Positions 18,950-55,849 of a DNA stretch of 64,000 nt are shown piece after piece; within the stretch, counting starts at the first letter, position 1, and each line of letters begins with the position of its first letter. A model generated the notes under the pieces. It made no database searches and was not told where the DNA came from. It saw nothing but the letters and a program-made list of their open reading frames with translations. This DNA is from Chrysomallon squamiferum (Eukaryota > Animalia > Mollusca), in contig CM022674.1 of NCBI GenBank assembly GCA_012295275.1, forward strand, positions 13,826,001 through 13,890,000, in the 5' to 3' direction. Position numbers and translations under genes: made by a program.

Positions 18950-21900
18950 TTAATTCTGATTAAACATCTGAGCCTTTTCTTTGAAGGCTTTTTTCCTTAG
19001 TTTGGCTTCTTCAGCTTGTTTTTTTCTCTCTTCCTGCTCCTGGCGGATTTCATCCTCAAACTTGCTACTCTGTGCTACAGACTCAATCTAAATAAATGAG
19101 TAGAACAAAGTAATGTATGAATAAATAAACAAAATAAATTAATTAATTTAAGACAAATGCATGAATAGAATCAATTGATGCACAAATGAATGAATCAATT
19201 TATGAATATATAATAATAATTTAATTAATTAATGAGTAAAAATGAATAGAATTAAGAGAATAAATTAACAAATAAGCAGAATGGAATGACTAAATAAAAA
19301 AATAAAAAGTTTAGTATATTTTAATTGTAATCAAATATCAGGTGTATATATTCAATGATTAAAGGAGAAGTCAAAATATTTCATACGTTGCAAATCACAG
19401 CAAGTATAAAAATATATTTTTTATTTCCTGAAGGATGATGATTTAAAATATGGCTGTTTAATGATTATTATTTTCTGTTTTACATTTCACTTGCAATATA
19501 ATGAAATATTAATAATAATAATTAATTAATCTCAGTTTTACATCGGTTTATTTTAATATAAAAAGTCATTAAAAGCCAAACATGTTATAATAAAAAATAA
19601 TTTCAAATGAGATTAGGATGTATTATTGGTTTTTTGACATCTTTTGGGGAATTATTTAATAATAATGTCTATAAATTTTAAGTTATGCCTTTTTCCTTGC
19701 ATAATGGCCATATAAAAGTTGAATAAATTAAAGCTCAATAACTTTTCGTTGAATTTTAATATTAACATTTATTTCATGTCAAAATTTCATGATGATGTCT
19801 GAGAGTAAACCAGATGCTGCTGTAAATTATTCTTATAAATCAGCAGTAAGAGATTTTTCACATGCACCTACCCATAGACAGAAAAGCATATATCACAGTG
19901 TTTGATATCCAAGTTGTAGGAGAATGGCGAATTAGCCCAAATTATATACTAAAGAAGATGATTTTCTCATCTATTAAATTTCAGGCTAGTATTTTAAACA
20001 GTGGGCTTATATACATTTTAAAATGTTGTGTTAGTGCAGATTAAATCAATTAGAATAGACATTTTGGTTTTACCTTAGCCTGAAAGAAGTTAGCAGCTCC
20101 TTTAACCCCCTCCACATCGACGTCAATCTCTGTCATTCTCTGATACAGCTCATACAGTCCTCCATCTTTGTCCAGTTCCCCTGCAGCTGCCTTCCTGAAT
20201 ATCAGCAGAAACTGCGAATAAATTAAAATAAAATAAAATAAAATAAAATATAATAAAGTAAAATAAAATAAAATAAAATAAAGTAAAATAAAATAAAATA
20301 AAATAAAATAAGAAATAAAGAAATATAAAATAAATAAAAATAAAAAAAGAAACTGAATGCCATTTATGTGCTTTTCTCTATTGCAATCTCTTTTTTTGTG
20401 TATGAGTATATATCATGCATGTGTGTATTTGTGTGTACCTGTGTGGTTTGAATATGTTATTTAAGGTCACCAAAAATGTTTTATTACCTACAGATTCAGT
20501 TAGTTTAAGTAAGGTTTCTACATAATGAAATATTTTATTTTTTGTTTAATTTTCAACGTATTATATGCATACATACACACACATATATATATAATTTCAT
20601 TCTAATTTTTTTTTACTGATTCTTTAATGTTATTTTATTTTCAGTTATATATTGATATATAATAATTTTTTTACATTTTCTACAACTTCATCATCAAGAT
20701 TCATTTTACAACGCTTTCTTCTGTATTATATATAATTTTATTTTATTTCTACAAACCTCTCTGAAGATAATTTTATATTAATGGTTCATTTATGTCATTT
20801 TATTTCCTAACATTTATTTTATTTGACAAACTTCTCTAAAATTAATGATTTATTAATGTTTGATTCACATTATTTTATTTGTTAAAATATGATTTATTAT
20901 TTTATTTCAACAAACTTTTCCAAAGATAATTTTATGTTAATGGTTCATATTCATTATTTTATTTCCTAAAATTTACATATATAATTTTTATTTAATTTCC
21001 TAATATTTACGAGTTATGATTTTATTTACTTATATTTACAATTTATAATTTTATTTTATTTCTGCAAACCTCTCTGAAGTTAATTTTATCGTCATGGTCC
21101 TCGTCCACTTCTTTGATCATGGCTTTCAGTGCAAGATGTGTCTGCGCAGCCCCCAGCTTCTCCATCATCAGCTTCAGTTCATAGAAGTCTATAAACTTGT
21201 CTTTACCTATGTCATATCTAACAGACAGAAAAATAACATATATATAAACTTGTCTTTACCTATGTCATATCTAACAAACAGAAAAAAACAAATATATATA
21301 AACTTGTCTTTACCTATGTCATATCTAACAAACAGAAAAATAACATATATATAAACTTGTCTTTACCTGTCATATCTAACAAACAGAAAAATAACATATA
21401 TATAAACTTGTCTTTACCTATGTCATATCTAACAAACAGAAAAAAACCATATATACATACATATATATATATATATAAACTTGTCTTTACCTATGTCATA
21501 TCTAACTAACAGAAAAAAAACATGTTTATATATATATATATATAAACTTGTCTTTACCTATGTCATATCTAACAAACAGAAAAAAAAAAACATGTTTATA
21601 TATATATATATATATTCTTATTTTTTATTTTTTATACACACATGCATATACATATACACATACTTATGCACACACACACACACACACACAAATATATATC
21701 AAATTAAGTATAAATATAAATATATCATAAATTGTGATCAGATGACACATATTTTATTTCACAGTAGAATAAAACAGAAGCATATTTAAGAGAACATTTT
21801 TAAACAAAATATAATTAAAAATACATCCATATATGTTACTTTTCACATATGTTTTCATAATCATTAACTGTATTAGATGTATTGTTCTTATCAAAAGATG

Positions 21901-23642: not shown

Positions 23643-25805
23643 CTCTGCATGTAAATGTACATGTAATTTAGTAAGGATGACAATGCTTGAGTAGGTGTTT
23701 CATCTACAAATTATGTGTGTGTGTGTCATCAAATTCTGAGGATTGTTAAAACGTTAGCAAAGACATGAAAAAGGAAAGGAGTGGACAAGAAATCCTACAA
23801 CTCATCCTGCTAGTGACTAAGATTAGAAAAAACAAAACAAAACATATATTAATAAATCAAACTAATAATAATAATAATAATAATAAAAATTTTAAAAAGT
23901 AAAAAGTAAACATACTATAACAACAACAACAAACAATAATAATAATAATATTCTATTACTACTACTACTACTACTATTATTACTACTACTACTACTACTA
24001 CCACTACCACTACCACTACAACTACTACTACTACTAATGATAATAATAATAATAATAATAATAATAATGTTAACTTATCTGCCTCTGGCCATTGCACTAC
24101 ACTTTATTATTTTTCTAATTTAAAATGCATATAAATGTGTGTTTTTTTATAATTGTAACATTTGTATCACTTTGATGCCTCTGGGGTTTAGCACCCTGAG
24201 GTAACAATTTCTTCTTATCATCCCAACACCATAGTACAAAACTGTTACATGTAGCAAACCCAGGTACGTGAGACTGAAGTAGTTTGAATGTCTTAATAAT
24301 CTTATCTATCATCATTTGTCTTTCTGAGAAGATTGATCACCAAACATTCTGACACATACTAACTGCATTGACATCTATGACATGTTAATTAATGCCAAAC
24401 ATTTTTAACAACAGATTTACTGATTTTGTTAAATATTATATGCAACAAACTGAGGTTAGATTGGGTGATAAAAGTCTCAGAGGACCATGGTGTTATCTTC
24501 AGACTTCCTGTTGTTCTTACTGTTGCAGTGTTGTTGATTTTTTTTTTTTAAATATATTTTGTTTTATGTTAAATAAATAAAGTTAAGAGCTGAAGCTAAA
24601 GCTTGATACTGATATGTTGCAAGATCAGTTCTGTTCATAGAGCTTTTTTCCCATTCCAACTCAAGTATAGTACAATTGTTAATGTTTATCAAAAGATTTT
24701 GTATGTGTGTGGTTTATTTTATTTCTTGTTTTGGGGGTTTTTTTTGGTAAATAATAATAAATGATTTTTTATATGTATAGCAAAGTTGCTTGTGATAAAG
24801 TATATGTTTGTAAAAAAAACAAAAAAGACCTTTCATGTCAAGGTTATATGACAGTACTGTTAGCAATAATATATAGACATACTATAGTCTTTTTCTTTCT
24901 TTCATCTGCTGCTTATTTTTCTTTCATTCATGTGTACAAACAAAAAAGAAATATAATTAGTGAAAGAAATGTAATTGTGGTCTAGTTGCATTGCAAAATA
25001 AATGATAAGCAATGAAACAAAATTAATTTGTAATGTTGGAGTTTAGGTCTACCATTTGTTAGCAGATATTTCAGTTATGCTGATAAGTCTGGTACAATAA
25101 AGTCATATAAAAACTGTTTAAGTGCATAAGTAGTGACAGTCATGAACACCATTTAGAAGGTTTTAAAAAAAAAAAAAAAAAAAACAGAAAATAAAATTAA
25201 AATAAATTCTTGTATCTGAAAAAAGTTTAATATACAATATTGATCAATTTCAGAAAAATTATTTTTATTACATTATACTTATATAATTTTATTTCGTTTT
25301 CTAAACAAAACTGACTGAAAGTAAAAAGCCACAATTAATTAATATTATCCTGTTGGGATATGAAACAACTGCAACATTTACAAGAAATTATCCAGAAAAC
25401 CTAAAACCTAAAAAAAAATAAAATAAAATAAAATAAAATAAAAAAAATATATATATAAAGAGGGGAAATATGTAAATAGACAATAGTTTCGTAAGAATTC
25501 CCTTTTATAAAATATTTTCTGTTTACAAATTAAAATCTGATTTTATAATTCCACATTACAAAAATTCTCTTAAATTAATTTCAACCCAAAATGAACCTCA
25601 AATCACAAAAAGGAAGAGAATTAGTCAATTACAAAGTGACTTACTTGTTGAACGTTTTCTGAAAATCTTGTATCTGTTTTCTACTAAATTCTTTAAATTC
25701 GGTATACGGATTCCATACCATCGATGAAGGAACAACTCCTTCTTCATTGCCTTCGTTGATCCTATCTCTTCTTTCCAATTTTTTAGCTAATTCTTCCGTA
25801 GCCAT
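18950..25805 (-). CDS. EFHD2: EF-hand domain-containing protein D (swiprosin, EFHD1/EFHD2 co-ortholog), 4 exons, ~194 aa
   Basis: Exons 25805-25645, 21217-21070, 20211-20074, 19087-18950 (585 nt, GT-AG): MATEELAKKLERR...WNPYTEFKEFSRKQIQDFQKTFNK/YDIGKDKFIDFYELKLMMEKLGAAQTHLALKAMIKEVDEDHDDKINFRE/FLLIFRKAAAGELDKDGGL...EIDVDVEGVKGAANFFQAK/IESVAQSSKFEDEIRQEQEERKKQAEEAKLRKKAFKEKAQMFNQN*. Hallmark swiprosin sequence. Confidence 0.96.
19836..19920 (-). mobile_element. Degenerate SINE-like fragment
   Basis: TCAGCAGTAAGAGATTTTTCACATGCACCTACCCATAGACAG matches the reverse complement of the SINE core at ~47200-47240; similar fragments at ~9478-9540, ~38461-38520 and ~58014-58100. Confidence 0.5.
21190..21600 (-). 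repeat. Seven tandem copies of the EFHD intron 1/exon 2 acceptor junction
   Basis: ATAAACTTGTCTTTACCTATGTCATATCTAACANACAGAAAAA occurs at ~21191 (true exon boundary), 21244, 21298, 21351, 21402, 21475 and 21542, separated by (TA)n-rich linkers. Confidence 0.93.
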
Positions 25806-26173: not shown

Positions 26174-26833
26174 GGTTTGTACGTTTTTTTAAGAGGAAGA
26201 GATAGCGATGATTACCATACTCATTTCGACAGTCTTCTTGTGTTAACAAAAAGCCCGCTTAATCAGTTAACTGTAATATTATACGATAACTATTTGTATC
26301 TGTAATAACACAAGAGTTTTATAACAAGCGCAATTATATGTTGTGATAGTTTCAAATTCCATTAGATTCGGAAATACCAATAAATCGTTCACTGATTATT
26401 ATAGTAAACTGTTCTGATATTTAATGGAGGTTACCCATAGTAATATACATTGTGTTATAAGAGTGAAATAAATTGCAATCATATCGATTTTCTGTCAACT
26501 GTTTTATTCTCTTTTCTTGTAAACAGTAATTAGAAATGTTGTTTTATGTACTAAATAAAGAAAAATGTCAAACTATTTTGCATGATATGGCAATTAAACA
26601 CTAAAATGAGATGCCGAGCAATTAAAAACTGATATATTTAGAGCTTTTAATAATTATTATAAAATAGCATTTTATTTCCTTACACTATAACCAACAGAAA
26701 TATGACAGAAAGGCCCCATAAAATTGATTTATAAATGTATCTGTAAATGGCATAGTGTTCTTTCGTATAAAATTAAATAATTTACAAGTATAAAAACACA
26801 ACTCTTCCATTAACGCCGACCCGTCCAGCTTTT

Positions 26834-26886
26834 TGACGTTGACCGGATGTGGAGTTTCTTTCACGTCCGCCCTCGGCTTATATAAG
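26834..26886 (+). promoter_or_regulatory. Compact Pol II-type core promoter: half-CRE, ETS site, GC box, TATA box
   Basis: TGACGT 26834-26839, CCGGATGT 26843-26850, CCGCCC 26867-26872, TATATAAG 26879-26886, pyrimidine-rich TTTTCC initiator-like tract ~20-25 nt downstream. Confidence 0.65.
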
Positions 26887-26902
26887 CAGGCACTGAAAAT
26901 TT

Positions 26903-27299
26903 TCCGTTACCCTCATGAGCATGAGATCTGGCGATGTCAGATTTTGTGCCCATGAGGGCCGTGTTTGATTCATCAAGGGAGTCGAACACGTAAGTATAGC
27001 CTTCTCTGGTTATACTACTGTAGGCATATTAGACAAGTAATATTTACAGGACGTCCGTAATAACGCAAGCTTGCAATCATATAAAACAAAAAAATAAAAT
27101 ATTCCTTGTCATTCTGCCTACAGATTATTCCTTCACCGATGGCTACTTTTTACACCATTTGGGGAAAAGCACTGTACCTTGAAAACAGCGACAATGAGTC
27201 ACCTGGTGAGTGATGATACCCCCACCTTAGAGTGGTTAATACAGATCCATTTCAAAAATGAGTTCTGGGGGACTGTTTACCAAAGGTACAGCAACATAT
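26903..27299 (+). ncRNA. Putative structured non-coding RNA (unidentified family; possible snoRNA host or H/ACA-type RNA)
   Basis: Four abutting hairpins (26910-26958, 26960-26990, 26993-27016, 27018-27049) with 8 G-U wobbles on the + strand, directly behind a TATA promoter; a downstream long stem 27172-27291 flanked by ANANNA and ACA; no long ORF. Confidence 0.55.
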
Positions 27300-27890
27300 A
27301 GGAAACTATTTATGTAAGGAAATGTAATTATTAAAAACAAAAACTATAATAATAGTAACAAAAACAGTAATAAATAAATTAAATAAATAAATAAATATTT
27401 TTTATATATATATATAAAGCCAAACAACAACAGTAATAAATAAATAAAGATTATATATATAAAGCCAAACAAGAAACCATTGAATAATTTTATTTATTTT
27501 CGAAAAGCTAAGGTTTTCGTAACGTCTGCTTTCAAACTGATAGGCCATTCTGATGACGTCAGTGAAACATCTAAATGACGTCACTAAATATGTAATCGAG
27601 AAATTAAACGTGGAGTAATATAGGCAAGATATTATAAAGAACAAAATAATTTGCGAAGGACATCCACTGTGTAGTTTTTTTTATGAAAGTAGATGTTCAT
27701 GTGATAAAGAAAAAAGAAAGACCTCTTGATCGCGACTTTATTATCAATCGTTTATATACAGTATAAATATATATCTATTGATACATTTTTTAAAATAATT
27801 TTTACCTTTACAAATAAAAATAACTTACGTTTTGATAAAAGCCAATATGCTTGTACTGTTATATTTAAATTATATATTTTTGCCTTTACA

Positions 27891-29060: not shown

Positions 29061-30971
29061 CTGAATTGTTAAGTCAACATGCTAACTACTGCTATTTGAT
29101 TTATCAAACAAACAATAACACATGACAGAAAATATCTGAATATGAACAAACAGAATTATTATGATCAATGAGTGCACTAGTCATTTAATTAAACCGTGGT
29201 GCAGATCTAAATGAATCCGTAAGAGATTAAGCAGAATGTAAGAAAACAATATACATAATCATCATACAAGAAATTCACAACAGAATAAATAAAAGGTATA
29301 ACAAAATTAGAATCATCATTACACTATTTGACACTATGTACAACATTCCAAATATAAAAAAATATTTTTTTACATTTTGCAAAGAAAAATAGAGAATGAG
29401 TTAATGATCCCTGATATTTTTTATTTTTCATATTTTATTACTTAGACAATAAACATCATGGATTTCTTAGAAATTTAAAAAACATAAAAATAAAAAGGAC
29501 AAACAAAAACAAAGCCCCCACAATACTACAGAAGACAAAACACTAATTATATTTCTTTTTTGTTTGTACACATGAATGAAAGAAAAATAAGCAGCAGATG
29601 AAAGAAAGAAAAAGAATATAGTATGTCTGTATATTATTGCTAATACAGTACTGTCATATAACCTTAAAATGAAAGGTCTTTTTTTTTTTTGTTACAAACA
29701 TATACTTTATCACAAGGAACTTTGCAATACATATAAAAAATATCAACAATTTGATCTTGAAAAATGTATCATCAGTATTATAAAAGTAGGATTATTGTTT
29801 CAAAATAAACATTTGATCAATTGTCATCTCAAAGAAATTAAAATAACTGTTCAAATAATAATGCAGACATCAATATAAACTTAACTAAAGTGATACCGCA
29901 AAAAAAACCCCCAGAAAACAAAACAATAAAAAAAACAAAATAAACCAACAACAAAATAAAACCCCACTTTGGTCTTCGGTCCGTTTTCATAACAAAAATA
30001 AATAATAATAATAAAAAATAATTTTAAATGTAAAAATATTCTAACCAGGATATAATAGTAAAATACTGGGGCATAAATTTAGCCCAGTAGAAAATATATT
30101 TATTGTTTTTTTATGGCTAACACATTTGCTCATGTAGACAAAATTGCTATAGGAGTTTTAATTCTCTGTTTCAATTATATTGTCAACGACATCGTTAATT
30201 TGGTTTTAAATGTTTTTTTTTTTTTTTTTTTTTTTTATTTTTTTTTTTTTTCCATGCCTGAATTGGTCGAATAATCTAAAATTGTAATGAAAAATACCAT
30301 GGAAATGATATTTCTACTCTATTATTTTTTCAGTTTTAAAAAGAATAACACTGTTAACCTTTTTGTATATACTATTCTAAGTACAGTTTTTCTTCATTTT
30401 TCTTTATAGTAATTAATATTTTAGTTTATCTTTCACTATGTGAGCGATTAAGTAGAAAGCCAAATGAAATTTCAGATATTTTAATCTCATATTATCTTGG
30501 CCATGTTTAAAAAAAATTAAATTGTAATTAGAAAATGATTAATTAGTTCATGTAATTAAGTTATAATGATGAAAGTTATCAAGAGCATGTTAAATGCATG
30601 TAATCCATGATCAAGTGAATAAATGACGTAATTATTAAACAAATCTCAGCAAAAAATGCAAAGTACAATGTCAAATGTAAATATTCCATATATTTAAAAG
30701 TGTAATAGTCATGAAAAATCCTTTCCCCAACCTGAAATTACACTTTTATAATGACCAAAATATGTATTTTATTAAAATTTCGGTAATAGTAAACCAATTT
30801 CCATAACCATTGTTTTATTTAAAAAAAGAAAAAAGAAGCAAACCCAAAAACAACAACAACATTTATAATGATCCCAAAAACATCGTAAAACTTCAGATCC
30901 CAGTAACGTCAATGGATAAAAAAAAAACAAAAAAACCAAAAAACGCAAAATTCTCTACTCGAAAAAACATC

Positions 30972-31759
30972 CTAAAATTCATCATGGAAATTTCGAATCA
31001 AGTTTACGACTTTGCTGTTTAAAAATATATTCTTATGTTTCATTATTTCATCTTTGGAGAGTTCCCCATCTTGATCATCGTCTATCAATGAAATGAGATT
31101 TCTGGCCTCCATCAGTGCTTGAACTGGGTTCCGAGGATCAATATAGTTCTGAAATCAGAAACAATTATGTTCCTAAAGACTCAAAATACCTTTTTTAAAA
31201 AATAGTAAATAATGAAGGGTCTATATTGTTGTTAACAAAATATAATAATGTTACTCTTAATTATCAATAAACATTAAGACTTGCAGAAATTTTAAAATTA
31301 TAAATTTTTTGTCAACATCTAGAATGTCAAAAAAAAACACCAATAAACTTCACCAAAACCCATCCTGTTTTATTTTGCTGTGTATTCTAATCAGTTGCAT
31401 TAATTTAATTAAGATAGATTTGTATTCCTTTCATATTTTATAATTAGCAAAAAAAATCGGTAACAGAAATGTACTAAAGAATCATGTGTAAGAATAAAAT
31501 ATATATATGAAATGGTTTGTTTTGAGGTAAGTATACTTTAAAAATTACAAATAAAAATAAACAATACTTTTAATTCTTGCACTGTGGCTATACCATCTCC
31601 ATTTCTGTCGATTGACTCTCGAAATTCACGTTCTCGATCAGCCTGCCATTGTTTATCCATTTCCTGAAAATCATGACCTTCGACCTCTCCAGGCGGTAAT
31701 GCCACAAACTCTTCCTCTGTCAAATTCTGGTCTCCATTTTTATCTGCAAATAACCAACA

Positions 31760-31798
<39 letters not shown>

Positions 31799-31993
31799 TT
31801 GTGACAATGAAATGCTTTTCAAAAGATCAGTCTTATTAGAGGTTTTGCAAAAGAACAAATTTGTTGTTATAAATCAAGTTTTCATAAAAATCACCTGTAT
31901 TAAAATATTTTTAAAAACCACAACTACCTCAAACCAGTCTCATACCAAAATATTGCTTAAATATATGCTAATAAAAACTTAAAAGTCTTTTAG

Positions 31994-32030
<37 letters not shown>

Positions 32031-33426
32031 CTCTTCTTTCAATTGAATTTCTTATTAAATATTTTAATTAATAGGACCAAATTTGTTTTCAGTTATCAAA
32101 TTATGAATTTTCTATGCCTGTTCAAAAACAAGAACTACGTTATAGTGCTGAGCAGAGGTTGTGAAAACAGACTGAATCGACATCTTTATATTCACATGCA
32201 CATCATTGAAAATATCCGAATATAAACAAACTCACAAACACACAAACACACACAGAGACAGACAAAAAAACCCCACTAATATCAGACCCAGTGCTTATAT
32301 TTCTGATTTAGAAGTATGTAACAGTCTTTATTTTATATTAATAAAACAAACACTAACCAAGAGTATTCAGAATATTGTACACCATTGAGTTCATCGCCTT
32401 CTCGCTTTGTTCAGGGTGTCTGAACACAAGAAACTCGGATTTGGACAAAGCATTGTCCACTGGATCCACGTCCACATCCGTCCATCGGAATTTGTAATGT
32501 ATAAGTTCATCTTTGTCTTAAAAATAATATAATATTTAAATTAATATTTAAAATTTGTTTTATATTCAATCCTGAAACCAAATTTTCAATTTTAAATTTA
32601 TAAAAAAATTTAATTTAAAAATTATTAATTTGAAATTAAGAAGCTTTATATACTTTTCTATCTTTGCTTTTATAATTAAAAATAACTGTAAAATCAATTT
32701 ATAAAAAATATACACATTTAAAGCATCTTCTTTTTGCAAATAACTGATTAATAACACAAAAAAAAATTCATCAAATTCTGAAATTTTATATAATAACATT
32801 TATAAATAATTTTGATATAAAAATGTATAAACAAAACAAGAAAAAAAAAAACAAAAAAATGTTCAAGGTATTTTAATTAAGACTAACACAAGATTACAAA
32901 ACACTAACCTTCTTGACTTAGCTCGATCTGGTCGTAATCAATAACCTGTTTCTTTGCTTTATCAAGAGGATATCCTTTGGCTAAGAGAAAGTGTGTGTAA
33001 TATACCTTCCATGGAATTGTCCCTGAGAAAAGAAAAGAATAATAAGAAGTAACCTACAAACGGCAGCTGTATATTTAGTATAGCTCTGGTACCATCAAGT
33101 TCTCCTGCAATAGATTCTCCACATTCTCACAAAAAACATCATACTTTTTAAAAATCATTAATTCTTTTTAACTGTTTTTAACTTTAGATTCATTTCAGTG
33201 TTTTAAAAAAAAAAAAAAATATATATATTAATTTTTTTACAATAATAAATAAATAAATAATAAACAAACAAAAAACAAAAAATTCATCACAATTTCATTA
33301 CTGATATAAAGCCCAGCTGAATTTTCAATAATTCTTTAGATTCATTTCAGTGTTCATTGTGAGGTGATAAAATATTAGAAAAATAAGAATAAATTTAAAA
33401 ACTTCTAACAATAACAATAAAAATAA

Positions 33427-33469
<43 letters not shown>

Positions 33470-34826
33470 ACCAACAAACAAAAAAACAAAATAAGATTAA
33501 AACAAAAACAGTCACACAAAAAAAAAACTAGCTTTATTTTTTTTTTTTTTTTTTTACTATATAAATAAATATTTTCATTACTTCAAAATTACATTTGTCA
33601 GTGTTACTGTCTCTAGTCATTTTCTTATTATCATCAGATTTATTTTCTAATTGGTATTATAAGTTTTAACTTTAACAAATTGAAGCAGAATCTCTGCATA
33701 ATATTTAACATCTAACAACTATACAGAAAATTTAAAAGAACATTTTTAAAAATTAATTGTACAAACCATTGGGATCAGGATTCAGATGTTCAAATATTTC
33801 ATCGTTTTCTTTAATCGATTCTGCAAAATGTTCTTCCATCTTTTTAACAATCCAGCTTTCCATTTCTGCCTCTGACAGAAGTCCATCAGAATCTGCATCA
33901 ACTCTAGAAAAAGGAAATTCTTTAAAATTAAAAACTAAATTGTTATTATTATTACTACAAAGATGAGATATCCCATTTATGTCAGACAGACAGTATTAAC
34001 TGAATTGTTAAGTATTATTATTGTCATGATTAATTTTATCATCATCATAATTATTAATACTATTAAGTTTTATTTGATGCTTGTAGACATAACATACAGT
34101 ATTCCACTGAGGCATAAATATGTGAAATATATATTGCAACATGACAGTTTTCTACTCATATTTTACACAAACAAATAATTTTCATAAAATAATTATAAAC
34201 TATTACAATAATTATTACTTTGCAAATATATCCTGAAGTTTCTTTATGGCATTTTCTTCAGTATTGTCTTCAATGGCTTCATGGTTGCCTAGGAACAGCT
34301 CCTTGTGGTATTCTTTATTAAGATGGCCGTCCTGTTCCATCTTGACAGCATCAACATGATCCACAGGCTTCAGTTGGTTGAGAGAAAGTTTTTCATCAGA
34401 GTTCACAGCTTTTTCAATAAACTTTAATTGTGTATCCTCAAGATTTGTTTTAAGTTTCAAAGAACTGTCTTTTCTCACACTTAGATTGTCGTGTTCTATC
34501 TTCTGCAGAAGTTTATCTTTTTGCTGCACATCTACAGTGTCTTTTGGATTACCTTTAGTTAAATCCTGTTTCAAATTACCTTTAGTTAAATCCAGTTTCA
34601 AATTATCTTTACTTAAATCCTGTTTCAAATTATCTTTACTTAAATCCTGTTTCAAATTATCTTTACTTAAATCCTGTTTCAAAGGACCACCCTGCATACT
34701 AAGTCGATCAGCTTTTTTGACCTCTGCTGTGTTTAGTTTTGAGTTTTTGAGAGTTTGAAGGGCAGGTCGTGTCACTGTTTGTTCAAATATTAACAGAAAG
34801 GTGAATGTCGTCAATAGCAACTTCAT
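30972..34826 (-). CDS. SDF4: 45 kDa calcium-binding protein Cab45 (CREC family), 6 exons, ~456 aa, signal peptide, C-terminal HDEF
   Basis: Exons 34826-34219, 33903-33767, 33022-32909, 32516-32358, 31743-31568, 31148-30972 (1371 nt). Signal peptide MKLLLTTFTFLLIF; Cab45 motif PVDHVDAVKMEQDGHLNKEYHKELFLG; EF loops DADSDGLLSEAE, DKNGDQNLTEEE, DRNGDGIATVQE, DDDQDGELSKDE; FRHPE; ends NFHDEF*. Confidence 0.94.
34548..34682 (-). repeat. Coding 27-nt tandem repeat x5 (LKQDLSKDN) in SDF4 exon 1
   Basis: LKQDLSKDN-LKQDLSKDN-LKQDLSKDN-LKLDLTKGN-LKQDLTKGN; + strand unit ATTA(T/C)CTTTA(C/G)TTAAATCC(T/A)GTTTCAA. Confidence 0.92.
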
Positions 34827-36487
34827 GATGTTCTGATGTTTATTAGTTTTGAGATGTGAAGAAGATCTCAGTAATTTGTTCTCCTTAATAACCTGGTTTT
34901 TCTTCTTATTTATAATGGCTAAAAGATCACATCCTTTTCTTTTTTTGGTTTCTTAAAAAAAAATTCAGTAATAATAAATAAAAAATAAATAAAAAAATAA
35001 ATCATTATAATTGGATAATGCCATGTGAAACTATGTTTCATGAGAAAAATTTTTTTTCAGTGATCATCTTATATAAATACTTTTTTAACAGATATTGTCA
35101 GTGACTGTCAAAGATATTATGGCACAAACAACAAAATATTAACCTGATTAAATTATCAGAATCTTTCCACAGATACTTCCTATTATAATAAAATAGATTA
35201 ATAAACTATATAAATAAAATGTAAAAGTGTATTTCATTTAAAATAAACATTAGACATTTCCACAGTATCACAACACAACATCACAACTGCAATGAAAGCA
35301 GTATGTGAATATGACCAACATTTGGGATATTTTAATAATAGTGGGTCTCCCTGTCAAAACAAATTCTGGATGTTTTAATTTAATTTTTGTATCAATACTG
35401 ACAGACATAATTTATATTAATAAAATATTCTTTGTCTTTGTGATATATCAGCCAAGATTTTAAAACTGTCATGGTCACAATTTCTATAACGGTAATGAAC
35501 GGCTAATATTCGCAATTATCAGTTCACAAAAATTTAATTTTTTCTCACAGGGTAACTAATTTAAATTTTATATGACTGTTGAAACGGTGCTTTTTGTATT
35601 GGAATAATAATTTAAAAAATAATAATAACAACAATTTAATTTTTCTCGAAAGTGCCTATAAAAGGCTGTTTACTGCTATAAGGTTCTCACTAAATGCAAA
35701 CACACTGTCAAAATTATGAAACTAATATCTCAGATTCGTGACGATGATATTAATAAACACTTCAATAAAGACTATTTACGATATTGCAGACAACATGATA
35801 TGTAACCATGTAATCATTAAATACAACCAAAAACCATGACTTTATCTAATATTTAATGTCATAGTACCAGTAACGCATAGGTTTATTATGCCATATATGA
35901 TATTGGGTTATATTTGTATAACTGATGATATATCATTGATTCATTATATGATGATCATGGCATATTAAATATTTAAAAAACATTAATTACATCTAAAAAT
36001 CTACAATAAAATATTTATTCCATTCCTTATAAAGAAATATAAATATTTATTTTGCTTAGTCTAAATATAAGTAAGAAAAGAAAGAAATACAAACAATTTG
36101 ATCCAATAATCAAGCAACCGAACAAATCCCCAAGTTTTGCTAAACACGTCAATATCTTTCTCGGTTATCGCCCTTTACTTTATTTTTCGTGTTTAATTCC
36201 TTTTTGTGTGGAGCACCATTATATTTCGCCTTAAAGCAAGTCTACAAATGTTCCAGTAGGTAGATGCTGGTGTGTTAGTTATTTTTGCGAGAGATAAATA
36301 ATAATAATAATAATTAAAAAAATCTATTTCGTGATTATGTTTTATATTAAATGTTAAATTTTACACTGGATTTTCGAAACTGAAAGTATAAGCAAAAGCA
36401 CATACGTATTATTACCCTACACACATACATCTATACATACACGTTTGTTGTGAATTCTTTAGATTTTATTATATAGTTATATATTCC

Positions 36488-36529
<42 letters not shown>

Positions 36530-36635
36530 TAACTACTGATTTTTCGTAATACTTTTTTCAATATGGAACTGGGTTATAAACGACGTTTGAGGTGAAGGTC
36601 ACGGTAAAAGAAAACGATCAGAAGTTGGCGGCAAG

Positions 36636-37028
36636 ATGAGAGACTTATTTCTGACGGTGTCACTTTTACTAATAATCGAACGAAGTGGAGGCATACCTTT
36701 CGATTTAGAAAAACAAAAATTAATGCCAGAAAACAACATGGTATCAGAAATAAATTGGAATGAATACGGAGAAGAAAGTCAAAACAATGAGCAAGATATA
36801 AATATTATTGATGTGGATGTCGATAATTCAGTAAAATTTGTTTTGGATTCACTGAAACCTATTAATCATGTGAAGGCAATCGACAGTGAACAACACAAAG
36901 AACTATTTTTAGGAGAAAGAGAAAAAAGTGACATAGACATTAATACAGAAAACGTCTTAGCGTTATTTCTGCTGTGAATTTGTTTTACTTTTCTTTATCT
37001 TAATATCAGTTGCTGTTGCCTTAACTAA

Positions 37029-37119
<91 letters not shown>

Positions 37120-37302
37120 TTTGTATGTATGCGTGTTTATTTGCGTGTGTTTGCTGCGAATATGTTTACATTTAGATCTAAACAAAACGAGCATGATACA
37201 TTTATCATCAGAAATAAACTATTGGAATTCAACAATAATAAACAGTTATGTACATCTGTTTTATATATTAACTTATTATTATTTATTTATTTATTTATTT
37301 TA

Positions 37303-37357
<55 letters not shown>

Positions 37358-37785
37358 TTTATTACTATTTATTTTGTTTCATTTTATTTTTATTATCATT
37401 AGGTTTTTTTTTTTTTAGAAAAATTTCCATTTAAAAATTAAACATTTTGGCTTGCATTTTAAAATACTTGATTTATTTTCAGATTAGATGTTGATAGCGA
37501 TCTTTTTTTGAGCAAACAGGAGATAGAAACTTGGATAAAAACACAACTCAAGGAGCATTATGATGAAGCTGTCAAAGAAAATGAAGAAATCTTTACACAT
37601 CTAGGGCAGGATGCTAATGGTTTGTATACATAATAATTAGTTTATGTCATTAATGTGACAGTTTTGAAAGATAAACAATTTTTTATTCTTCTTAAATGTA
37701 AATACAGTAAACTATATTAGGTTGCTTTTGTTAGTGATATAATGTAGTACACATACATAAACACAGAAATACAGACATACTGAGA

Positions 37786-37845
<60 letters not shown>

Positions 37846-40800
37846 TTGTTCTAAATTCTCTACAGAGTTTTAGTTAGCATATTGCCAAACATATGATTCA
37901 TATCATTTGAAAACAAATTTACAAATTTAATATATCTCTGAGATATTGTATTTTTGATTTTTAATGTTTTTTAATGACAGCTGCTGTTGCATGGGATACA
38001 TTCTACCTTCATTTGTTGCTGGCTCTAGGCTATCCGCATAGTACAGCATTGGGGCACATAAAGGGTTCTAAAGAAATAAAACTCAGAGACACAGGTGTGA
38101 ATCATTTAAATAAACAATGTCAGAAAACGTTTTATTTAAAATTACAAAGTGTGTGTGTGTGTGTGTGTGCGTGCATGCGTGCGTGTATACATGCATATAT
38201 ATATGTGTGTGTGAGATGTTTGTGTGTATGTGTGTGTGTGATAAACATTTATGGGTATGGGTAATTGTATAAGTAAATATATCAGCATTTATCTTACCTT
38301 TCCCTTATACTTTTTTAACTAGGTCTTTTGAAAGTGCAGTACAGTCCTAAATAATTTTTACAAGAATTTACAAGCTTGCAAAAAAAAATAAAAATAATAA
38401 TAACATAAAAAAAATGTACATATTGAAAGATGAAATCTGATATGGGCTATTCTTTTTCATTTAGCAACAAGACATTTTATTATGAAACCTTCCCATAGAA
38501 AGGAGAATACATACATTAGCTACTGATAAAAAAATCACTTGCATATACAACTGAAACAGAAGCAGATAGCTGAAATGTCTCTGAGATACAGCCCAGTTCT
38601 CAAAGAATACAGAAATAATGTTTCAATAATTTTTTTTACTATTTCAGAGAAAAGTCAGCTGAAATTCTACAGAGATCGTTGGAACCAGGTAGACAAGTTT
38701 CCTACTGATAATGCATTATCTAGGTCAGAGTTGCTTGCCTTTCGGCATCGAGAAATGAATAACATCAGCTTAGATGACACCATTGTGAAAATCATGAATA
38801 AGTTAGGTATGAAATTATTACCAGTTGAATAAAATTATAGTTAAAAATGTATCTTTAACGACATCTTGACACAGGAAAAAACAAACATGAGTTGTATATA
38901 TATGTCTGTGTGTGTATGTATAAATGTGTATGTATATAGCAATGGTGGAAAAACTTTGATGTGAGGCATGTCAATACATTTATATCTTAGTCATTTTTAC
39001 ATTGCCATGTGTCACTTCTAAATTTATATTGTTAAATGGTGTATTACATTATGATTTTAACACACAAGTATATGAATATATATGCTATGTTGTACTACTT
39101 TTAATTCTCTTTTATTAACTTTTAAATTACGTGAACAAAAATATTTGATAATATATTAAATCAATGTCCAAGGTACTCAGTGACGCGCGTGTCACTTAAA
39201 ATGCCCTCGCATGTCACTGATGACACACATGTAATAGATCTGTCACCACTGGTATGTAGATGTATATGTCTGTGTGCAATTATACAGTTCATGTTTATTT
39301 AATGGAGTATATTATTGTTTTATTGTTTGTGCAGATATAAAAAGGTTGTAGAGTTTAGAATTAAGAGGTTAAAAAAACATTATGTTTGTGTTCATTAGTG
39401 ACAGACTTTGTCAGAGAGTATGTTCTGATCAGCAGATTAATTTTTCACTCACTCTCTCTCTCTTGAAGTTAGGATTAAAGTAAGGATTAGGATTAGGTAA
39501 GGATTAGATTTAGAGTTAGGATTAAAATAAGGGTCAGGGTAAGGTAAGTGTTACATTTAGAGTAAAAATAGACTGATGGAAAATGAAGGATCAAGATTAG
39601 GGTTAGAGTCTGAGATTGTTGCAGGATTAATGATAAGTGTAGAAATGGTTAATAAAAAAAATGATTGTTAAAAATATAAATAATGGGTTGTTGTTTTTTT
39701 CAGTCCTTTTTATATATTGTGTAAATTAGAAGAAAAAACGATTTTTATTAGATGTATTTTTCAAATTACATTCTCAAAATAGATATGAATCTATCAGTTA
39801 TCAGATATATTAATTTAAATGTAGAATTCTTTAACAAAAATTCTGAAAAAAACCCTAAAAAAAAAAAAAAGAGTTTATATACTGATTTTCAGATACATTC
39901 TACTTATTACTCCAGTTTGGAAACTAACATTTTGACATCTAGTTGTTAATTATTTATTCAGTCAATTATTAAAATTAATTTTCTGTTTTAAATTTGACAG
40001 ACACAAATGAAGATGGTGTCTTGTCTGAAGAAGAGTTCAGAGAGAGTTATGTAATGGATAATTTCTATCAGTTTGGAATGTTAAATGAAAGTCAGGAATT
40101 TAGAGAATTTCTTGACAGAAACAAAGATGGATCAGCCACTAAGGACGAATTGAAAGTAACTGTATTCTACACTTTGTTTAATATTTGCAACTATTTTCAC
40201 CATGCTTGCTGATTCTGTGGTTAAGATAAGCCCTTGTGACTGGTAGACAAAAGGTTCAAACCTCACTACCAGCTTCTAATCTGAGCTAATTTTTTGCTGT
40301 AGTCTGTATTATTTTTATTTTTTATTTTCGTGTGTGTTATAAAGTGAAATGTAAGACAACTACATCTTCCATCTAATTTTCTAATACAAGTAACCAAAAC
40401 ATTGCCTTCAGTAGAGATAATTTTCTAATTTACTAACATTAACATTGTCTTGAGAGATATTCTATCAGTTAACAGATATCTTCAAATCCTTTTGGGAAAT
40501 TCCAACCTTCATTATCACCAAAATATTAAGGTGATTCAAAATGTACATTTGTTGATTGTGAAGAAATGATCTAAACATATTTTTCATGTAGTCATATATA
40601 TTTCTAGATGTCTTTTGTTTTTACCAACCATTCTTTGCTAATAACAAAGTTAAAAAATTAAAAAATTAGAATTAGAAAACAAAGGAAATTTTAGTTCTTT
40701 TAGTAATGTTTTTAAATTATCTTTTTTTTTTTTTTAAAAAATATATTTATATAGGTTGTTCTGTTTTTTCTATTCAGTGGTTTCTAGATCCACAAAACCT

Positions 40801-44661: not shown

Positions 44662-45535
44662 GATTATTATTATTATTATTATTATTAAATCAATTTATTT
44701 TGAATTTTTTTAACCTAATATTAGCGTCTTTACAATAATGAGCTAAGATCGTCACTTTGTAGAAAATAGCAATTAAAATGAAAAGTTTTATCTGAAAAAT
44801 AAATTTGTATTTAGTCTTGTTTTTTTTGTGTTTATTTTATTTTATTTATTTATTCACTTATTTATTTATTTGGTAAAAGTTTATTTACATTAGCTTACAG
44901 ACTAATATTTCGGACTTCGTTAACTAAAATCTTTGATCATGGTAATGAAAGGGTTGTTGTAACTGACAATTTAAGTAAATTCATAGAAGAGCAAATATAT
45001 AATATTTATCGATTAATTAATTGATTTACCTGTTAACGAATCATGACTGATACTCGAAGAAAGAAAAATACCCACTTAAAAACAGCGTGGGTTGTTGGCG
45101 GACTGGCTAATGAAAAACCAGTCTGCCAAAAGTCGCAGCTAACCGGTAAAGTAATCGCGTTCAATTAGGGAATTATAACAGCTAATTTGGTCTTTTATTT
45201 ACAAGTTTTCAGTCATAAATGAGAAATTTGCAAGCTGTTGTTATGTTGTAATTTCCACCAGTTCCGAAGACGTTATGAACACAAGAATACAACCTATTCA
45301 TGTTTATTTGCATGGTTACTACAAACGCTGTTTTCTACTACAGAATTAAGTTTTTGCGGTAGTTAATTTTTTGTGTGTTTTGTTACTAATTAACCCCACC
45401 TTAACTTGGCTTTATCCTTTTCAATCAATAACTTCAACAATGGTTGAACATGTTTGATCGTTTGCTGTCAAGTACTTTCTTGACTCAATTAGGATTGGCT
45501 TCTGTATTGCTTGCGAAAAATATCTCATTAATTCA

Positions 45536-53671: not shown

Positions 53672-55849
53672 CTCCTCCTCCTCCTCCTCCTCCTCTTCAT
53701 CCTCCCCCTCTCGTTTTCCAGATTAATCATTACTTTATTAGTATTATTATGTACAGACAGCATTCCGGTTGTGACGTCATTCCAGCTGGGCTTTGGTGTC
53801 AAAAACATACAAAGTGTCTGTCTGTTATGTTGTCAGTATGTTCGTCTGCACTACGGTGCCTTTTGTTTAACAAAGGCTCACAAACAAACTGAGTACTTAT
53901 TTACAGAGTACCAGTCGCGGTACGAATGAACTGTCTGAAAACATTCTTTGTTCGTACAAGTTATTATTTTATTTAGTTTAATAACAAATGACGACAATAA
54001 AATATTGCAGTTGCAAAACCGTTAACAGCTGGAATCATGACGTCATAGCATACAGGGCGGACTGGAAGAAACCAAAGAACATTGATCCGCACTGTACGTA
54101 ATGACGTCACTATTAAAGAAAAATGGCGCTACCCACATAGCTCTGAAACTGTACTTTTTTGGTGTCATGCCTCGATATTAATTAAAACTGGACGGCAAAA
54201 ACTCAACAAAACATAACGTAAAAGTGAGCTGAATATATTTCTTCGTATCACTATAGATACATTAAAAAAAAAAAAAAAAAAAAAAATAATAATAATAATA
54301 AATAAAATAAAGCTTAAAACTTTATTTTAGTAATAGTTTAGAAAACAGACAGTAACAATAACTGTTACATTTATTTATCAAACATTTTAAGTGTTATATT
54401 TTATATGCACGTATTTTCTTTTGAAAGTGAAAATATTTTTGAAAAGTGCTTGATGAAATAAAAGCTGTGGAAGAAAAATATGCTAAAATGAATCAATGAA
54501 CGATGTGCACAAAACTTTTTGTAAGCATCGTTTGAAAAAACAAAACAAATCGCTTCCTCTTCTCTGGAAAAGAAAATAGCGGATAAAAGGTAAAGATTGT
54601 TTTAATGTTTTCAGAATTGTGAATCTCTACTAAATATACCGTTAACAGTATTTTGAAAGGAGCGACCGTTGTTATAATAATAATAAGAAGAAGAAGAAGA
54701 AGAAGAAGAATTATAACAACAAAAGCAAATACGGAAATTGCCGAAAATATACGAAGTGGGACGATTCGTTACCAGAATTGTAACAAACACTGGTTATAAT
54801 TAAATGGATTTATTAAGCTTTCTTATCTTAAGTGCTGTTAAAGAAGTCGGCAAACAAAAGGCGTTTTATATTAATTTATAGACGACAAAACAAACGCGAA
54901 TAATGGAGGGCGATTATTTTATCTCACATCGCAAAAGATTTTATTTATGGTGTTTGCGTCAAAATTCGAAATGAGTGTTTGATTCGGACTAATTATAAAC
55001 AATTTGCGGTTGCGTGGAATACAGAAATACAAAATGAAACACTGGAGTTATTAATTAGCAGCAATAAATGACGAAAAAGGAGCGTTAAATAATACAAAAG
55101 AAATGAAGACTGTAAATTACGTTTTGACATGAGTGTTAATCCGACATCTGTTTCTTTATGCATCAGTAATTACGAAAAATGAATTTCATGCCGTTTTTGT
55201 GTCGCTATTGTATAGTGACCTGTGATATTTATTTAAATAGAATAATAATAATAAAAATAAAATAAAATAAAATTACTAAAATAAAATAAAATAAAATAAA
55301 ATAAAATTAAATTAAAATGAATAAAAATAAATAACAATTACAAATTTAAAAATAAAAATAAAAACAAAAAATAAAAATATAATGAAAAAGAACAGTCTGA
55401 TATAGATTATTTGCTTTCAAATCATTAAAAAAAAAAAAAAGAATAAAAAAAAAAAAAAATAAAAAAAAAAATAAAAACAGTGCTGAGATTAAGTACAAAT
55501 TTCAATTTCCGGTTTACTGAGATTTTACATTTCAGTATTTGATTTTATGTCAGCCATGTTCTGATCTATAATTTCTTCATCACTGTAGCAACAGTGATAA
55601 ACTAGCTTATTTATTTTTGAGAAATACAACAACTATAAACAAAAGTATTAACTCATTTAATCACCAGACGTTCATGAACAAGAAAACAAACATTACATTT
55701 ACTAAACTGTTTAAATTCGCGAGGTCAACCAGTCAAATCGAACATTTTCGCATTCTGTTCTGGGAAGATCCAAATGGGGAGAGAAAGATATTTGTTGTTG
55801 TTTTTTTCATTTTCGATCGATGTGTTCGTTTTCTTCTTCCTCTTCGTCG

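What the first reader, a model, noticed from the sequence alone, without database searches (positions are those of the whole stretch)
26834..27065. Unexplained TATA-driven, highly structured RNA: four abutting hairpins starting at the predicted TSS
Seen: behind CRE-half/ETS/GC-box/TATATAAG lies H1 26910-26958 (23-nt arms, 22 paired, 4 G-U, one A-C, 3-nt loop), H2 26960-26990 (12 bp, 2 G-U), H3 26993-27016 (9 bp, 1 G-U) and H4 27018-27049, spaced only 1-2 nt apart; CGTTA (26905-26909) can pair with TAACG (27061-27065) to close a multiway junction. Deviations from perfect symmetry are almost all G-U on the + strand, which points to selection on RNA structure, not DNA palindromes. A perfect donor GTAAGT (26990) sits between H2 and H3 and an acceptor ends at 27123, so structure may gate splicing of a 134-nt intron. 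I recognise no snRNA, 7SK, SRP, RNase P/MRP or U3 motifs. Inference: an undescribed ncRNA gene, a snoRNA-host-like transcript, or a capped TSS-proximal small-RNA hairpin.
Basis: partly seen in the sequence, partly recalled or inferred. Interest (0 to 1): 0.8.

Follow-up and report, generated by a model that had tools for sequence, protein, structure and literature searches.

The report
Unclassified hairpin RNA gene in snail
Beside the EFHD gene of what is likely a deep-sea vent snail, an apparently single-copy stretch just behind a TATA box is predicted to fold into three tight hairpins and appears unspliced in RNA-sequencing libraries, so it is likely an undescribed non-coding RNA of at least 330 bases that would stay in the nucleus as a protein-binding scaffold, and it matches no catalogued RNA family.

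Summary
The hairpins are real: H1-H3 have the pairs described (z -8.7 on +, -5.7 on -) and form the only run of three or more abutting stable hairpins in 64 kb. Contigs from four RNA runs of one study cover 26921-27249 without a joint, so the proposed 134-nt intron is not seen spliced. 26760-27171 has no second full copy at 80% likeness in a whole-genome-like run. Corrections: in the longer RNA, H4 and the CGTTA/TAACG closure give way to a long stem (27018-27123) that is predicted to bury the acceptor, and 27172-27291 is a high-copy MITE-like insertion. No Rfam family fits. Telomerase RNA and 7SK fail on defining features; U17/snR30-like motifs are present but misplaced. No ortholog was found in 33 EFHD loci, none from a close relative, so covariation is untested. 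Best reading: an unspliced, likely nuclear, structured non-coding RNA acting as a protein scaffold (0.40). Main rival: incidental transcription of inverted-repeat relics (0.25). Strand, ends and function are inferred, not shown.

The parts
26834..26886 (+). Predicted Pol II-type promoter: CRE half-site 26834-26839, ETS-like 26843-26850, GC-box-like 26867-26872, TATA box 26879-26886
   Evidence: Sequence, motif scan; motif names recalled; activity not tested
26909..26909 (+). Predicted transcription start (A, 30 nt after the TATA start), directly before H1
   Evidence: Spacing; RNA contigs begin at 26921, 26922, 26923 and 26953; contigs cannot show a start
26910..26958 (+). Hairpin H1, 22 pairs (4 G-U), one A-C, 3-nt loop, -32.2 kcal/mol; holds two AUGs of a 17-codon ORF
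26960..26990 (+). Hairpin H2, 12 pairs (2 G-U)
26990..26995 (+). 5' splice-site motif GTAAGT at the H2/H3 junction, mostly paired, not seen used
26993..27016 (+). Hairpin H3, 9 pairs (1 G-U)
27018..27123 (+). Long stem (27018-27045 with 27097-27123; 22 Watson-Crick pairs in three helices, no G-U) around a 50-nt mostly open loop; predicted to bury the acceptor AG at 27122-27123; local H4 (27018-27049) is the alternative fold; may be an old inverted-repeat relic
27099..27171 (+). U17/snR30-like motif set: ATATTCCTT 27099-27107, ACACCAT 27152-27158, AAA 27166-27168; weak hairpin 27128-27166; T5 run 27147-27151
   Evidence: fit to U17 structure not met
27172..27291 (.). High-copy MITE-like insertion with 9-nt perfect terminal inverted repeats; the RNA contigs end inside it
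   Evidence: Many contigs with other flanks, loose ends at 27172-27173 and 27291 in run X5; arms; folds equally on both strands
26921..27249 (.). Interval covered by RNA-library contigs, no joints, no differences from the window listed
   Evidence: X1 26922-27245, X2 26923-27224, X3 26953-27249; X4 26921 to beyond 27171
25647..25805 (-). First coding exon of the divergent neighbour EFHD (context; ATG 1.1 kb from H1)
   Evidence: 89% to Gigantopelta aegis EFHD2-like, best of 153 hits

Best explanation
This is an apparently single-copy element, present unspliced in RNA libraries, that is likely a TATA-driven Pol II non-coding RNA gene of at least 330 nt in a vent-snail-like gastropod, and its RNA would work as a nuclear, protein-binding scaffold rather than as a message or a precursor. 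Transcription likely starts at A26909, so H1 folds at the cap; a -32 kcal/mol cap-proximal stem holding the first AUGs would block ribosome loading (general rule, recalled). H2/H3 and the long stem are predicted to hide the donor and acceptor, which would keep the RNA unspliced; an unused 5' splice-site motif would favour nuclear retention as it does in human cells. The three short G-U-containing helices, packed 1-2 nt apart, would give a rigid docking surface for double-stranded-RNA-binding or arginine-rich proteins, as the 5' stems of 7SK or TAR do. The 3' end likely lies in or just after an inserted MITE. Shown: sequence, folding energies, contiguous cover in RNA libraries, repeat boundaries. 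Inferred: strand, start, polymerase, location, partners, function.
For: Folding far beyond composition and better on + for H1-H3 (-60.6 vs -41.5; z -8.69 vs -5.69); H2-H3 alone still z -6.16. Only run of 3 or more abutting hairpins of -10 kcal/mol or better among 239 (+) and 252 (-) hairpins in the window. All 8 non-Watson-Crick positions in H1-H3 are transition-type, 7 G-U and 1 A-C. H1 begins 31 nt after the TATA start. One contig per RNA run bridges 26953-27171 in 4 of 4 runs with no joint; three contigs begin within 26921-26923. Run X5 holds 26760-27171 in one piece, and the only other record laid at 80% likeness matches two A-rich 21-25-nt bits. Donor positions +4 to +6 and the acceptor AG are predicted paired (unpaired probability 0.08 or less). 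ORFs are 35 codons or shorter, and the two scanned (24 and 35 aa) have no Pfam match. Nuclear retention by an unused 5' splice-site motif: PMC4380460 and PMC9074902, abstract starts only.
Against: No ortholog: 0 of 33 EFHD loci showed similarity above shuffled controls (28 of the 33 entered the shuffle test), so there is no covariation. All RNA runs come from one study, are unstranded contigs, and an RNA library can hold DNA. The G-U bias is weak statistically (p 0.035 to 0.11); a hairpin in the promoter, upstream of the TATA box, shows the same bias (3 G-U, 0 A-C). The 3' half (27018-27171) folds better on the - strand (-41.7 vs -34.3). A strongly folding window near an EFHD gene is not rare: 6 of 31 other loci had one at z -6 or lower (mononucleotide shuffles), several looking like fold-back repeats. 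The transcript runs into a young repeat, which a tightly constrained small RNA would tolerate poorly. No protein partner was tested.
Confidence: 0.4

Rival explanations
1. Incidental transcript: a cluster of decayed inverted repeats and MITE relics sits behind a divergent promoter near EFHD; the folds make the RNA stable enough to be sequenced but have no selected role.
For: A young MITE-like repeat is part of the covered interval. The long stem is pure Watson-Crick, similar in length to that repeat (106 vs 120 nt) and shares its outer five letters at both ends. The 3' half folds better on -. 6 of 31 other EFHD loci carry equally strong folds nearby. No ortholog found.
Against: H1-H3 have no second copy at 80% likeness in X5, are unrelated to each other (no direct repeats among them), abut at 1-2 nt, start exactly where the TATA box predicts, and deviate only by transition-type pairs, 7 of 8 G-U.
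Confidence: 0.25
2. Capped pre-miRNA (TSS-miRNA): Pol II sometimes stops just after H1, and the capped 52-nt hairpin is cut by Dicer to give a 3p guide; the longer RNA is read-through.
For: H1 meets or nearly meets the screen of PMC6009592 (passages): energy below -20 (-32.2), length over 50 nt if it runs 26909-26960, stem of 22 pairs plus one mismatch against 'longer than 22 bp'.
Against: The loop is 3 nt; RNA contigs join the 3' part of H1 to everything downstream; H2, H3 and the long stem are left unexplained; no arm matches of 11 nt or more elsewhere in the window; no Rfam miRNA family.
Confidence: 0.12
3. Structured leader of a longer polyadenylated RNA whose 134-nt intron is removed only under some conditions; unfolding of H2/H3 and the long stem would expose donor and acceptor and change the 24- or 35-codon ORF output.
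For: Perfect donor, an acceptor 134 nt later, both predicted masked, with a weaker alternative fold (local H4) that frees the acceptor; AATAAA/ATTAAA signals at 27330-27390.
Against: No joint in 4 of 4 RNA runs (contigs drop rare forms, one study); both ORFs run into the MITE and have no Pfam match.
Confidence: 0.12
4. A diverged, independently transcribed U17/snR30-like H/ACA RNA that pairs with 18S rRNA expansion segment 6 and ends at 27171, the cover beyond being precursor.
For: ATATTCCTT at 27099 equals the C. elegans m1 in Table 1 of PMC7601244; an m2-like ACACCAT follows 44 nt later, then 7 nt, AAA and 3 nt ending exactly at the MITE edge; this set occurs once in the window and in 0 of 20000 shuffles (m1 alone in 155).
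Against: The pattern was tuned after seeing the sequence (one mismatch and AAA allowed). m2 is AAACCAU in 14 of 14 rows of that table. m1 is predicted buried in the long stem; forcing m1 and m2 open gives no basal-pocket hairpin (-5.2 kcal/mol). No SNORA73 or snR30 match at E up to 10.
Confidence: 0.07
5. A diverged 7SK (Pol III, TATA-driven, ending at the T5 run 27147-27151) that sequesters HEXIM and P-TEFb.
For: Size range and TATA box fit loosely; one GAUC at 26925 in the 5' stem; protostome 7SK sequences are poorly conserved (PMC8406779 passages).
Against: The GAUC pairs with GAUU, not a second GAUC; no terminal stem plus U tail; T4 inside H1 and contigs running through the T5 run in 4 of 4 RNA runs; no 7SK model match at E up to 10.
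Confidence: 0.04

Closest known systems
7SK snRNA (PMC10083321 and PMC8406779, passages)
   Same: Independent gene with a TATA box, about 300-340 nt, several stem-loops in series, long 5' stem with a GAUC; the model for 'works like' (structured scaffold).
   Different: No paired GAUC/GAUC core, no terminal stem with U tail, internal T4 and T5 runs read through, Pol II-type upstream motifs, no covariance-model match.
U17/snR30 (SNORA73, CeN96) (PMC7601244, passages and Table 1)
   Same: Variable multi-hairpin 5' part followed by an m1-identical 9-mer and an m2-like 7-mer with U17-like spacing to an ACA-like triplet.
   Different: m2 has a mismatch at an invariant position, AAA for ACA, m1 buried in another stem, no basal-pocket hairpin, RNA cover continues about 80 nt further.
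m7G-capped pre-miRNAs / TSS-miRNAs such as miR-320 and miR-484 (PMC6009592, passages)
   Same: Stable hairpin of about 50 nt starting at the predicted Pol II start.
   Different: 3-nt loop; embedded in a longer contiguous RNA with further stems; no small-RNA evidence.
Mollusc telomerase RNA (PMC8480181, passages and section 8)
   Same: TATA-proximal start, few hundred nt (408 in apple snail), multi-stem.
   Different: No telomeric template of 7 nt or more on either strand, no H/ACA domain fit.
MITEs / Ginger-type elements (PMC2836005, passages), for 27172-27291 only
   Same: Short, non-coding, high copy, terminal inverted repeats, TGT...ACA inner ends with near-matching 4-nt flanks (3 of 4).
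   Different: Fifth base is C, not the purine of the TGTNR pattern; superfamily left unassigned.

Membership tests
Any Rfam 15 family | Covariance-model match at gathering score | tested here: not met
   0 hits in 64 kb; best weak hits E 0.5 to 7.9, far below gathering scores
Telomerase RNA | Template of about 8-11 nt complementary to the TTAGGG repeat | tested here: not met
   No 7-, 8- or 9-nt match on either strand of 26800-27700; this species' own telomere repeat was not determined
Telomerase RNA | Pseudoknot and 3' H/ACA domain | tested here: inconclusive
   Nested folding only; H-box-like hexamers are common in this A-rich DNA
7SK | Paired GAUC/GAUC motif in the 5' stem | tested here: not met
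   One GAUC in 26909-27171, paired with GAUU
7SK | Pol III end: terminal stem-loop followed by a U run | tested here: not met
   No stem directly before T5 27147-27151; contigs cross it in 4 of 4 RNA runs
7SK | Binding of HEXIM, LARP7, MePCE | not testable with these tools
   Needs pull-down
U17/snR30 | m1 motif | tested here: met
   27099-27107 equals the C. elegans m1
U17/snR30 | m2 motif AAACCAU and ACA box | tested here: not met
   ACACCAT (1 mismatch) and AAA; m2 invariant in 14 of 14 rows
U17/snR30 | m1 and m2 unpaired on the basal sides of a pocket in the 3' hairpin | tested here: not met
   m1 mostly paired; constrained fold gives no such hairpin
U17/snR30 | Complementarity to this species' 18S rm1/rm2 | not tested
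Capped pre-miRNA (TSS-miRNA) | Hairpin at the start, below -20 kcal/mol, over 50 nt, stem longer than 22 bp | tested here: inconclusive
   Energy met, length met only if ends are 26909-26960, stem borderline
Capped pre-miRNA (TSS-miRNA) | Argonaute-bound 3p product and capped precursor ending after the hairpin | not testable with these tools
   No small-RNA or raw-read run was offered
Sm-class snRNA / SL RNA | Single-stranded Sm site; for SL RNA a short leader before the donor | tested here: not met
   Only Sm-like word (26940) lies inside the H1 stem; donor is about 80 nt from the predicted start; features recalled
tRNA or tRNA-derived SINE head | Cloverleaf, A and B boxes | tested here: not met
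   ARAGORN finds nothing at 90% or 80% thresholds, two artefact-level calls at 70%; no A box by the pattern used, one B-box word on - at 26987
Multi-copy transposon fragment (26905-27171) | Further genomic copies | tested here: not met
   2 records laid at 80% likeness in X5: the locus itself and one with two short A-rich matches; older, more diverged copies would be missed
MITE-like repeat (27172-27291) | High copy, terminal inverted repeats, sharp ends with varied flanks | tested here: met
   45 X5 records laid on 26500-27760, most on this stretch among the 8 listed

The most novel reading that the evidence does not exclude
It is the first member of an undescribed class of independently transcribed, snRNA-sized mollusc RNP RNAs in which a cap-proximal array of G-U-tuned hairpins docks proteins while an alternative long stem hides or exposes a complete intron, making a single RNA both scaffold and conformational splicing switch.
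Probability: 0.15. Interest if true: 0.8.

Novelty: new variant of a known kind. Interest (0 to 1): 0.5.

Why it matters
Outside vertebrates, flies and nematodes, the stock of structured non-coding RNAs is known almost only by homology, so a compact, expressed, single-copy RNA that fails every Rfam model is a concrete candidate for a lineage-specific RNP. If orthologs show covariation it would be a new RNA family in molluscs and a clean case of structure suppressing an otherwise perfect intron. If not, it is a useful example of how inverted-repeat relics behind a promoter can mimic an RNA gene.

Tried and rejected
Whole-genome search: no genome is held for this window, so copy number rests on one run, X5, whose kind is not on record and which may be the source of the assembly. 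Silent-stretch control: 26500-26886 had no cover in X1-X3 and 26760-26913 none in X1, X2, X4 while X5 covered it; 27250-27510 had no RNA cover either, but X5 also has holes at 27317-27402 and 27489-27760, a filter drops records, and all RNA runs are one study, so these gaps do not fix the ends or prove transcription. Depth values were not used to rank expression. Orthologs: 33 EFHD exon-1 loci from metagenome contigs (scan stopped at 44 of 64 parts); only 4 were 71% or more identical in protein and only 2 of those reach over 1.4 kb upstream; blastn, nhmmer and local alignment found nothing above background; L025 has look-alike abutting hairpins at a similar distance but no sequence similarity and no TATA box 30 nt before, so it was not counted. 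Genome contigs gave one unrelated bacterial hit; a search by handle was not possible. The H1-end pattern in viral contigs gave 73 loci, none similar beyond the pattern. Phage and plasmid blastn: no match. An Integrator 3' box-like word at 27249 was dropped because such words occur 4.8 times per kb. A hammerhead-core word at 27550 overlaps a CRE and was not pursued. A 31-letter loose 5' end in one X1 contig has no match in the window by short-motif look-up and was seen in 1 of 4 runs; left unexplained. Two of my three pair-probability probes for the long stem were placed off-register and read 0; the stem rests on the outer-helix probe, the printed structures. The bacterial promoter scan is irrelevant to this genome. 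Literature searches found no description of this RNA (most subscription papers, including the invertebrate 7SK and U17 surveys, are not held). Earlier scan findings: nothing on this locus.

Full report
Setting. The window is AT-rich animal DNA (GC 0.21-0.39 per kb). EFHD exon 1 is 89% identical to Gigantopelta aegis EFHD2-like, the best of 153 hits, the next being 83% or lower, so the organism is likely a peltospirid-type vent snail; the species was not determined. No whole genome is held.

Observation. 26895-27070 folds at -71 kcal/mol on + (z -7.47) and -52 on - (z -4.29), 0 of 200 shuffles as good in either case. It is the lowest-energy of 1596 windows; only two microsatellite windows among the 15 lowest had stronger z. 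It is the only run of three or more abutting hairpins of -10 kcal/mol or better on either strand. Pair counts: H1 18 WC + 4 G-U + 1 A-C, H2 10 + 2, H3 8 + 1. The 7:1 G-U to A-C ratio has p 0.035 at even odds and 0.11 at 60:40: suggestive, not decisive, and a hairpin in the promoter (26844-26868) shows 3:0.

Corrections to the anatomy. With more 3' sequence, local H4 and the CGTTA/TAACG closure vanish (probability 0.0) in favour of a long stem joining 27018-27045 to 27097-27123 (outer helix 1.0; arms). This stem has no G-U pairs, and 27018-27171 folds better on the - strand, so the + strand signal is confined to H1-H3. In the fold of 26909-27250 the donor's +4 to +6 bases and the acceptor AG are paired. 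Next comes 27172-27291, with 9-nt perfect inverted ends. In run X5, 45 records were laid on 26500-27760, with loose ends at 27172-27173 and 27291 and different flanks: a high-copy MITE-like insertion. Its inner ends are TGT...ACA with flanks matching at 3 of 4 letters, but it misses the TGTNR pattern of Ginger elements (PMC2836005, passages), so it stays unclassified.

RNA evidence. Five runs hold the stretch: four RNA runs of one study and one run of unrecorded kind. Each RNA run has one contig over the element: X1 26922-27245, X2 26923-27224, X3 26953-27249, X4 from 26921 to past 27171 (21 further letters, so about 27192 if they match). No joints and no differing letters were listed. So the 134-nt intron is present in the sequenced form in 4 of 4 runs; rare spliced forms would be dropped by contigs. 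Contigs show neither strand nor ends, and RNA libraries can hold DNA; the flanking-cover control is given under Tried and rejected. That three contigs begin 12-14 nt after the TATA+30 position, at the edge of H1's outer helix, fits a + strand start near 26909 with loss of fragments that fold back, but this is inference.

Copy number and relatives. At 80% likeness, X5 gave the locus in one piece and one other record with two A-rich matches of 21-25 nt: no young family for 26760-27171. Orthologs were sought by synteny: 33 EFHD exon-1 loci, of which only two mollusc-like ones reach over 1.4 kb upstream; none resembled the element. Six of 31 loci with enough upstream DNA had a window at z -6 or lower, several fold-back-like, which warns against reading z alone. 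Viral, phage, plasmid and prokaryote collections gave nothing related. Covariation is therefore untested.

Known families. Rfam: 0 hits at gathering score in 64 kb; only weak unrelated matches at E 0.5-7.9 in three narrower searches. Telomerase RNA needs a template (8 nt in apple snail; PMC8480181 passages and section 8); none of 7 nt or more exists. 7SK needs paired GAUC motifs and a 3' stem with U tail (PMC10083321, PMC8406779, passages); neither is met, and contigs cross the T5 run. U17/snR30 was the closest call: 27099-27107 equals the C. elegans m1, and an m2-like word and AAA follow at U17-like spacing, ending at the MITE edge; the set occurs in 0 of 20000 shuffles, but I tuned it after seeing the sequence, m2 is invariant in 14 of 14 species listed (PMC7601244 passages and Table 1), and m1 is buried. 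H1 nearly meets the screen for capped pre-miRNAs (PMC6009592, passages), which cannot be tested without small-RNA data. tRNA or SINE-head origin was not supported.

How it most likely works. Shown: a strongly folding, apparently single-copy element directly behind a TATA box, covered in one unspliced piece in RNA libraries, with short ORFs only (35 codons or fewer; two scanned, no Pfam). Inferred: Pol II starts at A26909; H1 forms at the cap and hides the first AUGs, which would block translation (recalled rule); H2/H3 and the long stem mask both splice sites; the unused donor would hold the RNA in the nucleus, as reported for human RNAs (PMC4380460, PMC9074902, abstract starts only); the short packed helices serve as a protein-docking surface. 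It would work like a 7SK- or TAR-type scaffold without being a member of those families. I give this 0.40, an incidental transcript over repeat relics 0.25, a capped pre-miRNA 0.12, a conditionally spliced leader 0.12, a U17-like RNA 0.07 and 7SK 0.04.

Novelty and verdict. Four literature searches (listings only) and five look-ups of earlier findings found no description; most subscription papers are not held and no supplements were read, so the invertebrate 7SK and U17 surveys could bear on two rivals. A genome-wide look-up listed other hairpin loci, none related by its notes. The feature is real and probably expressed, unclassified, and one ortholog alignment away from a decision. Interest 0.5; new variant of a known kind (independently transcribed structured non-coding RNA), with a 0.15 chance of a new RNP class.

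Noticed in passing
window 26844-26868: Hairpin in the promoter, upstream of the TATA box (-11.2 kcal/mol, 7 WC + 3 G-U), overlapping the ETS-like word; its first letters recall the 7SK 5' end (recalled).
   Followed up: partly
window 27513-27666: Two full CRE palindromes at 27554 and 27576 under a separate short RNA contig in run X1 only; possible enhancer or second promoter.
   Followed up: no
window 24764-24962 and 29541-29741: A 201-nt segment duplicated in inverted orientation at 95% identity, flanking the EFHD first exon and the RNA locus.
   Followed up: no
window 30972-34952 (-) and 36591-40212 (+): Two related EF-hand (SDF4-like) genes head to head; one exon pair is 54% identical over 50 aa. 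The first has a long repeat-rich N-terminal exon.
   Followed up: partly
window 21190-21580: EFHD intron holds about six tandem copies of the start of an exon with its acceptor; possible alternative acceptors.
   Followed up: no
window 54039-54108 and 45084-45140: Strong non-microsatellite hairpins; the first has CRE words at both ends and folds better on -.
   Followed up: no
L025, 1034-1150 nt upstream of the EFHD match, divergent strand: Three abutting G-U-containing hairpins at a similar distance and orientation, without sequence similarity or TATA box; repeat-like sequence follows.
   Followed up: partly
window 26922, run X1: One contig carries 31 unrelated letters before 26922; likely a chimera, seen in 1 of 4 RNA runs.
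   Followed up: partly
window 27100-27107 and 27126-27133: The 8-mer TATTCCTT occurs twice, 26 nt apart, the only direct repeat in 26800-27330.
   Followed up: partly
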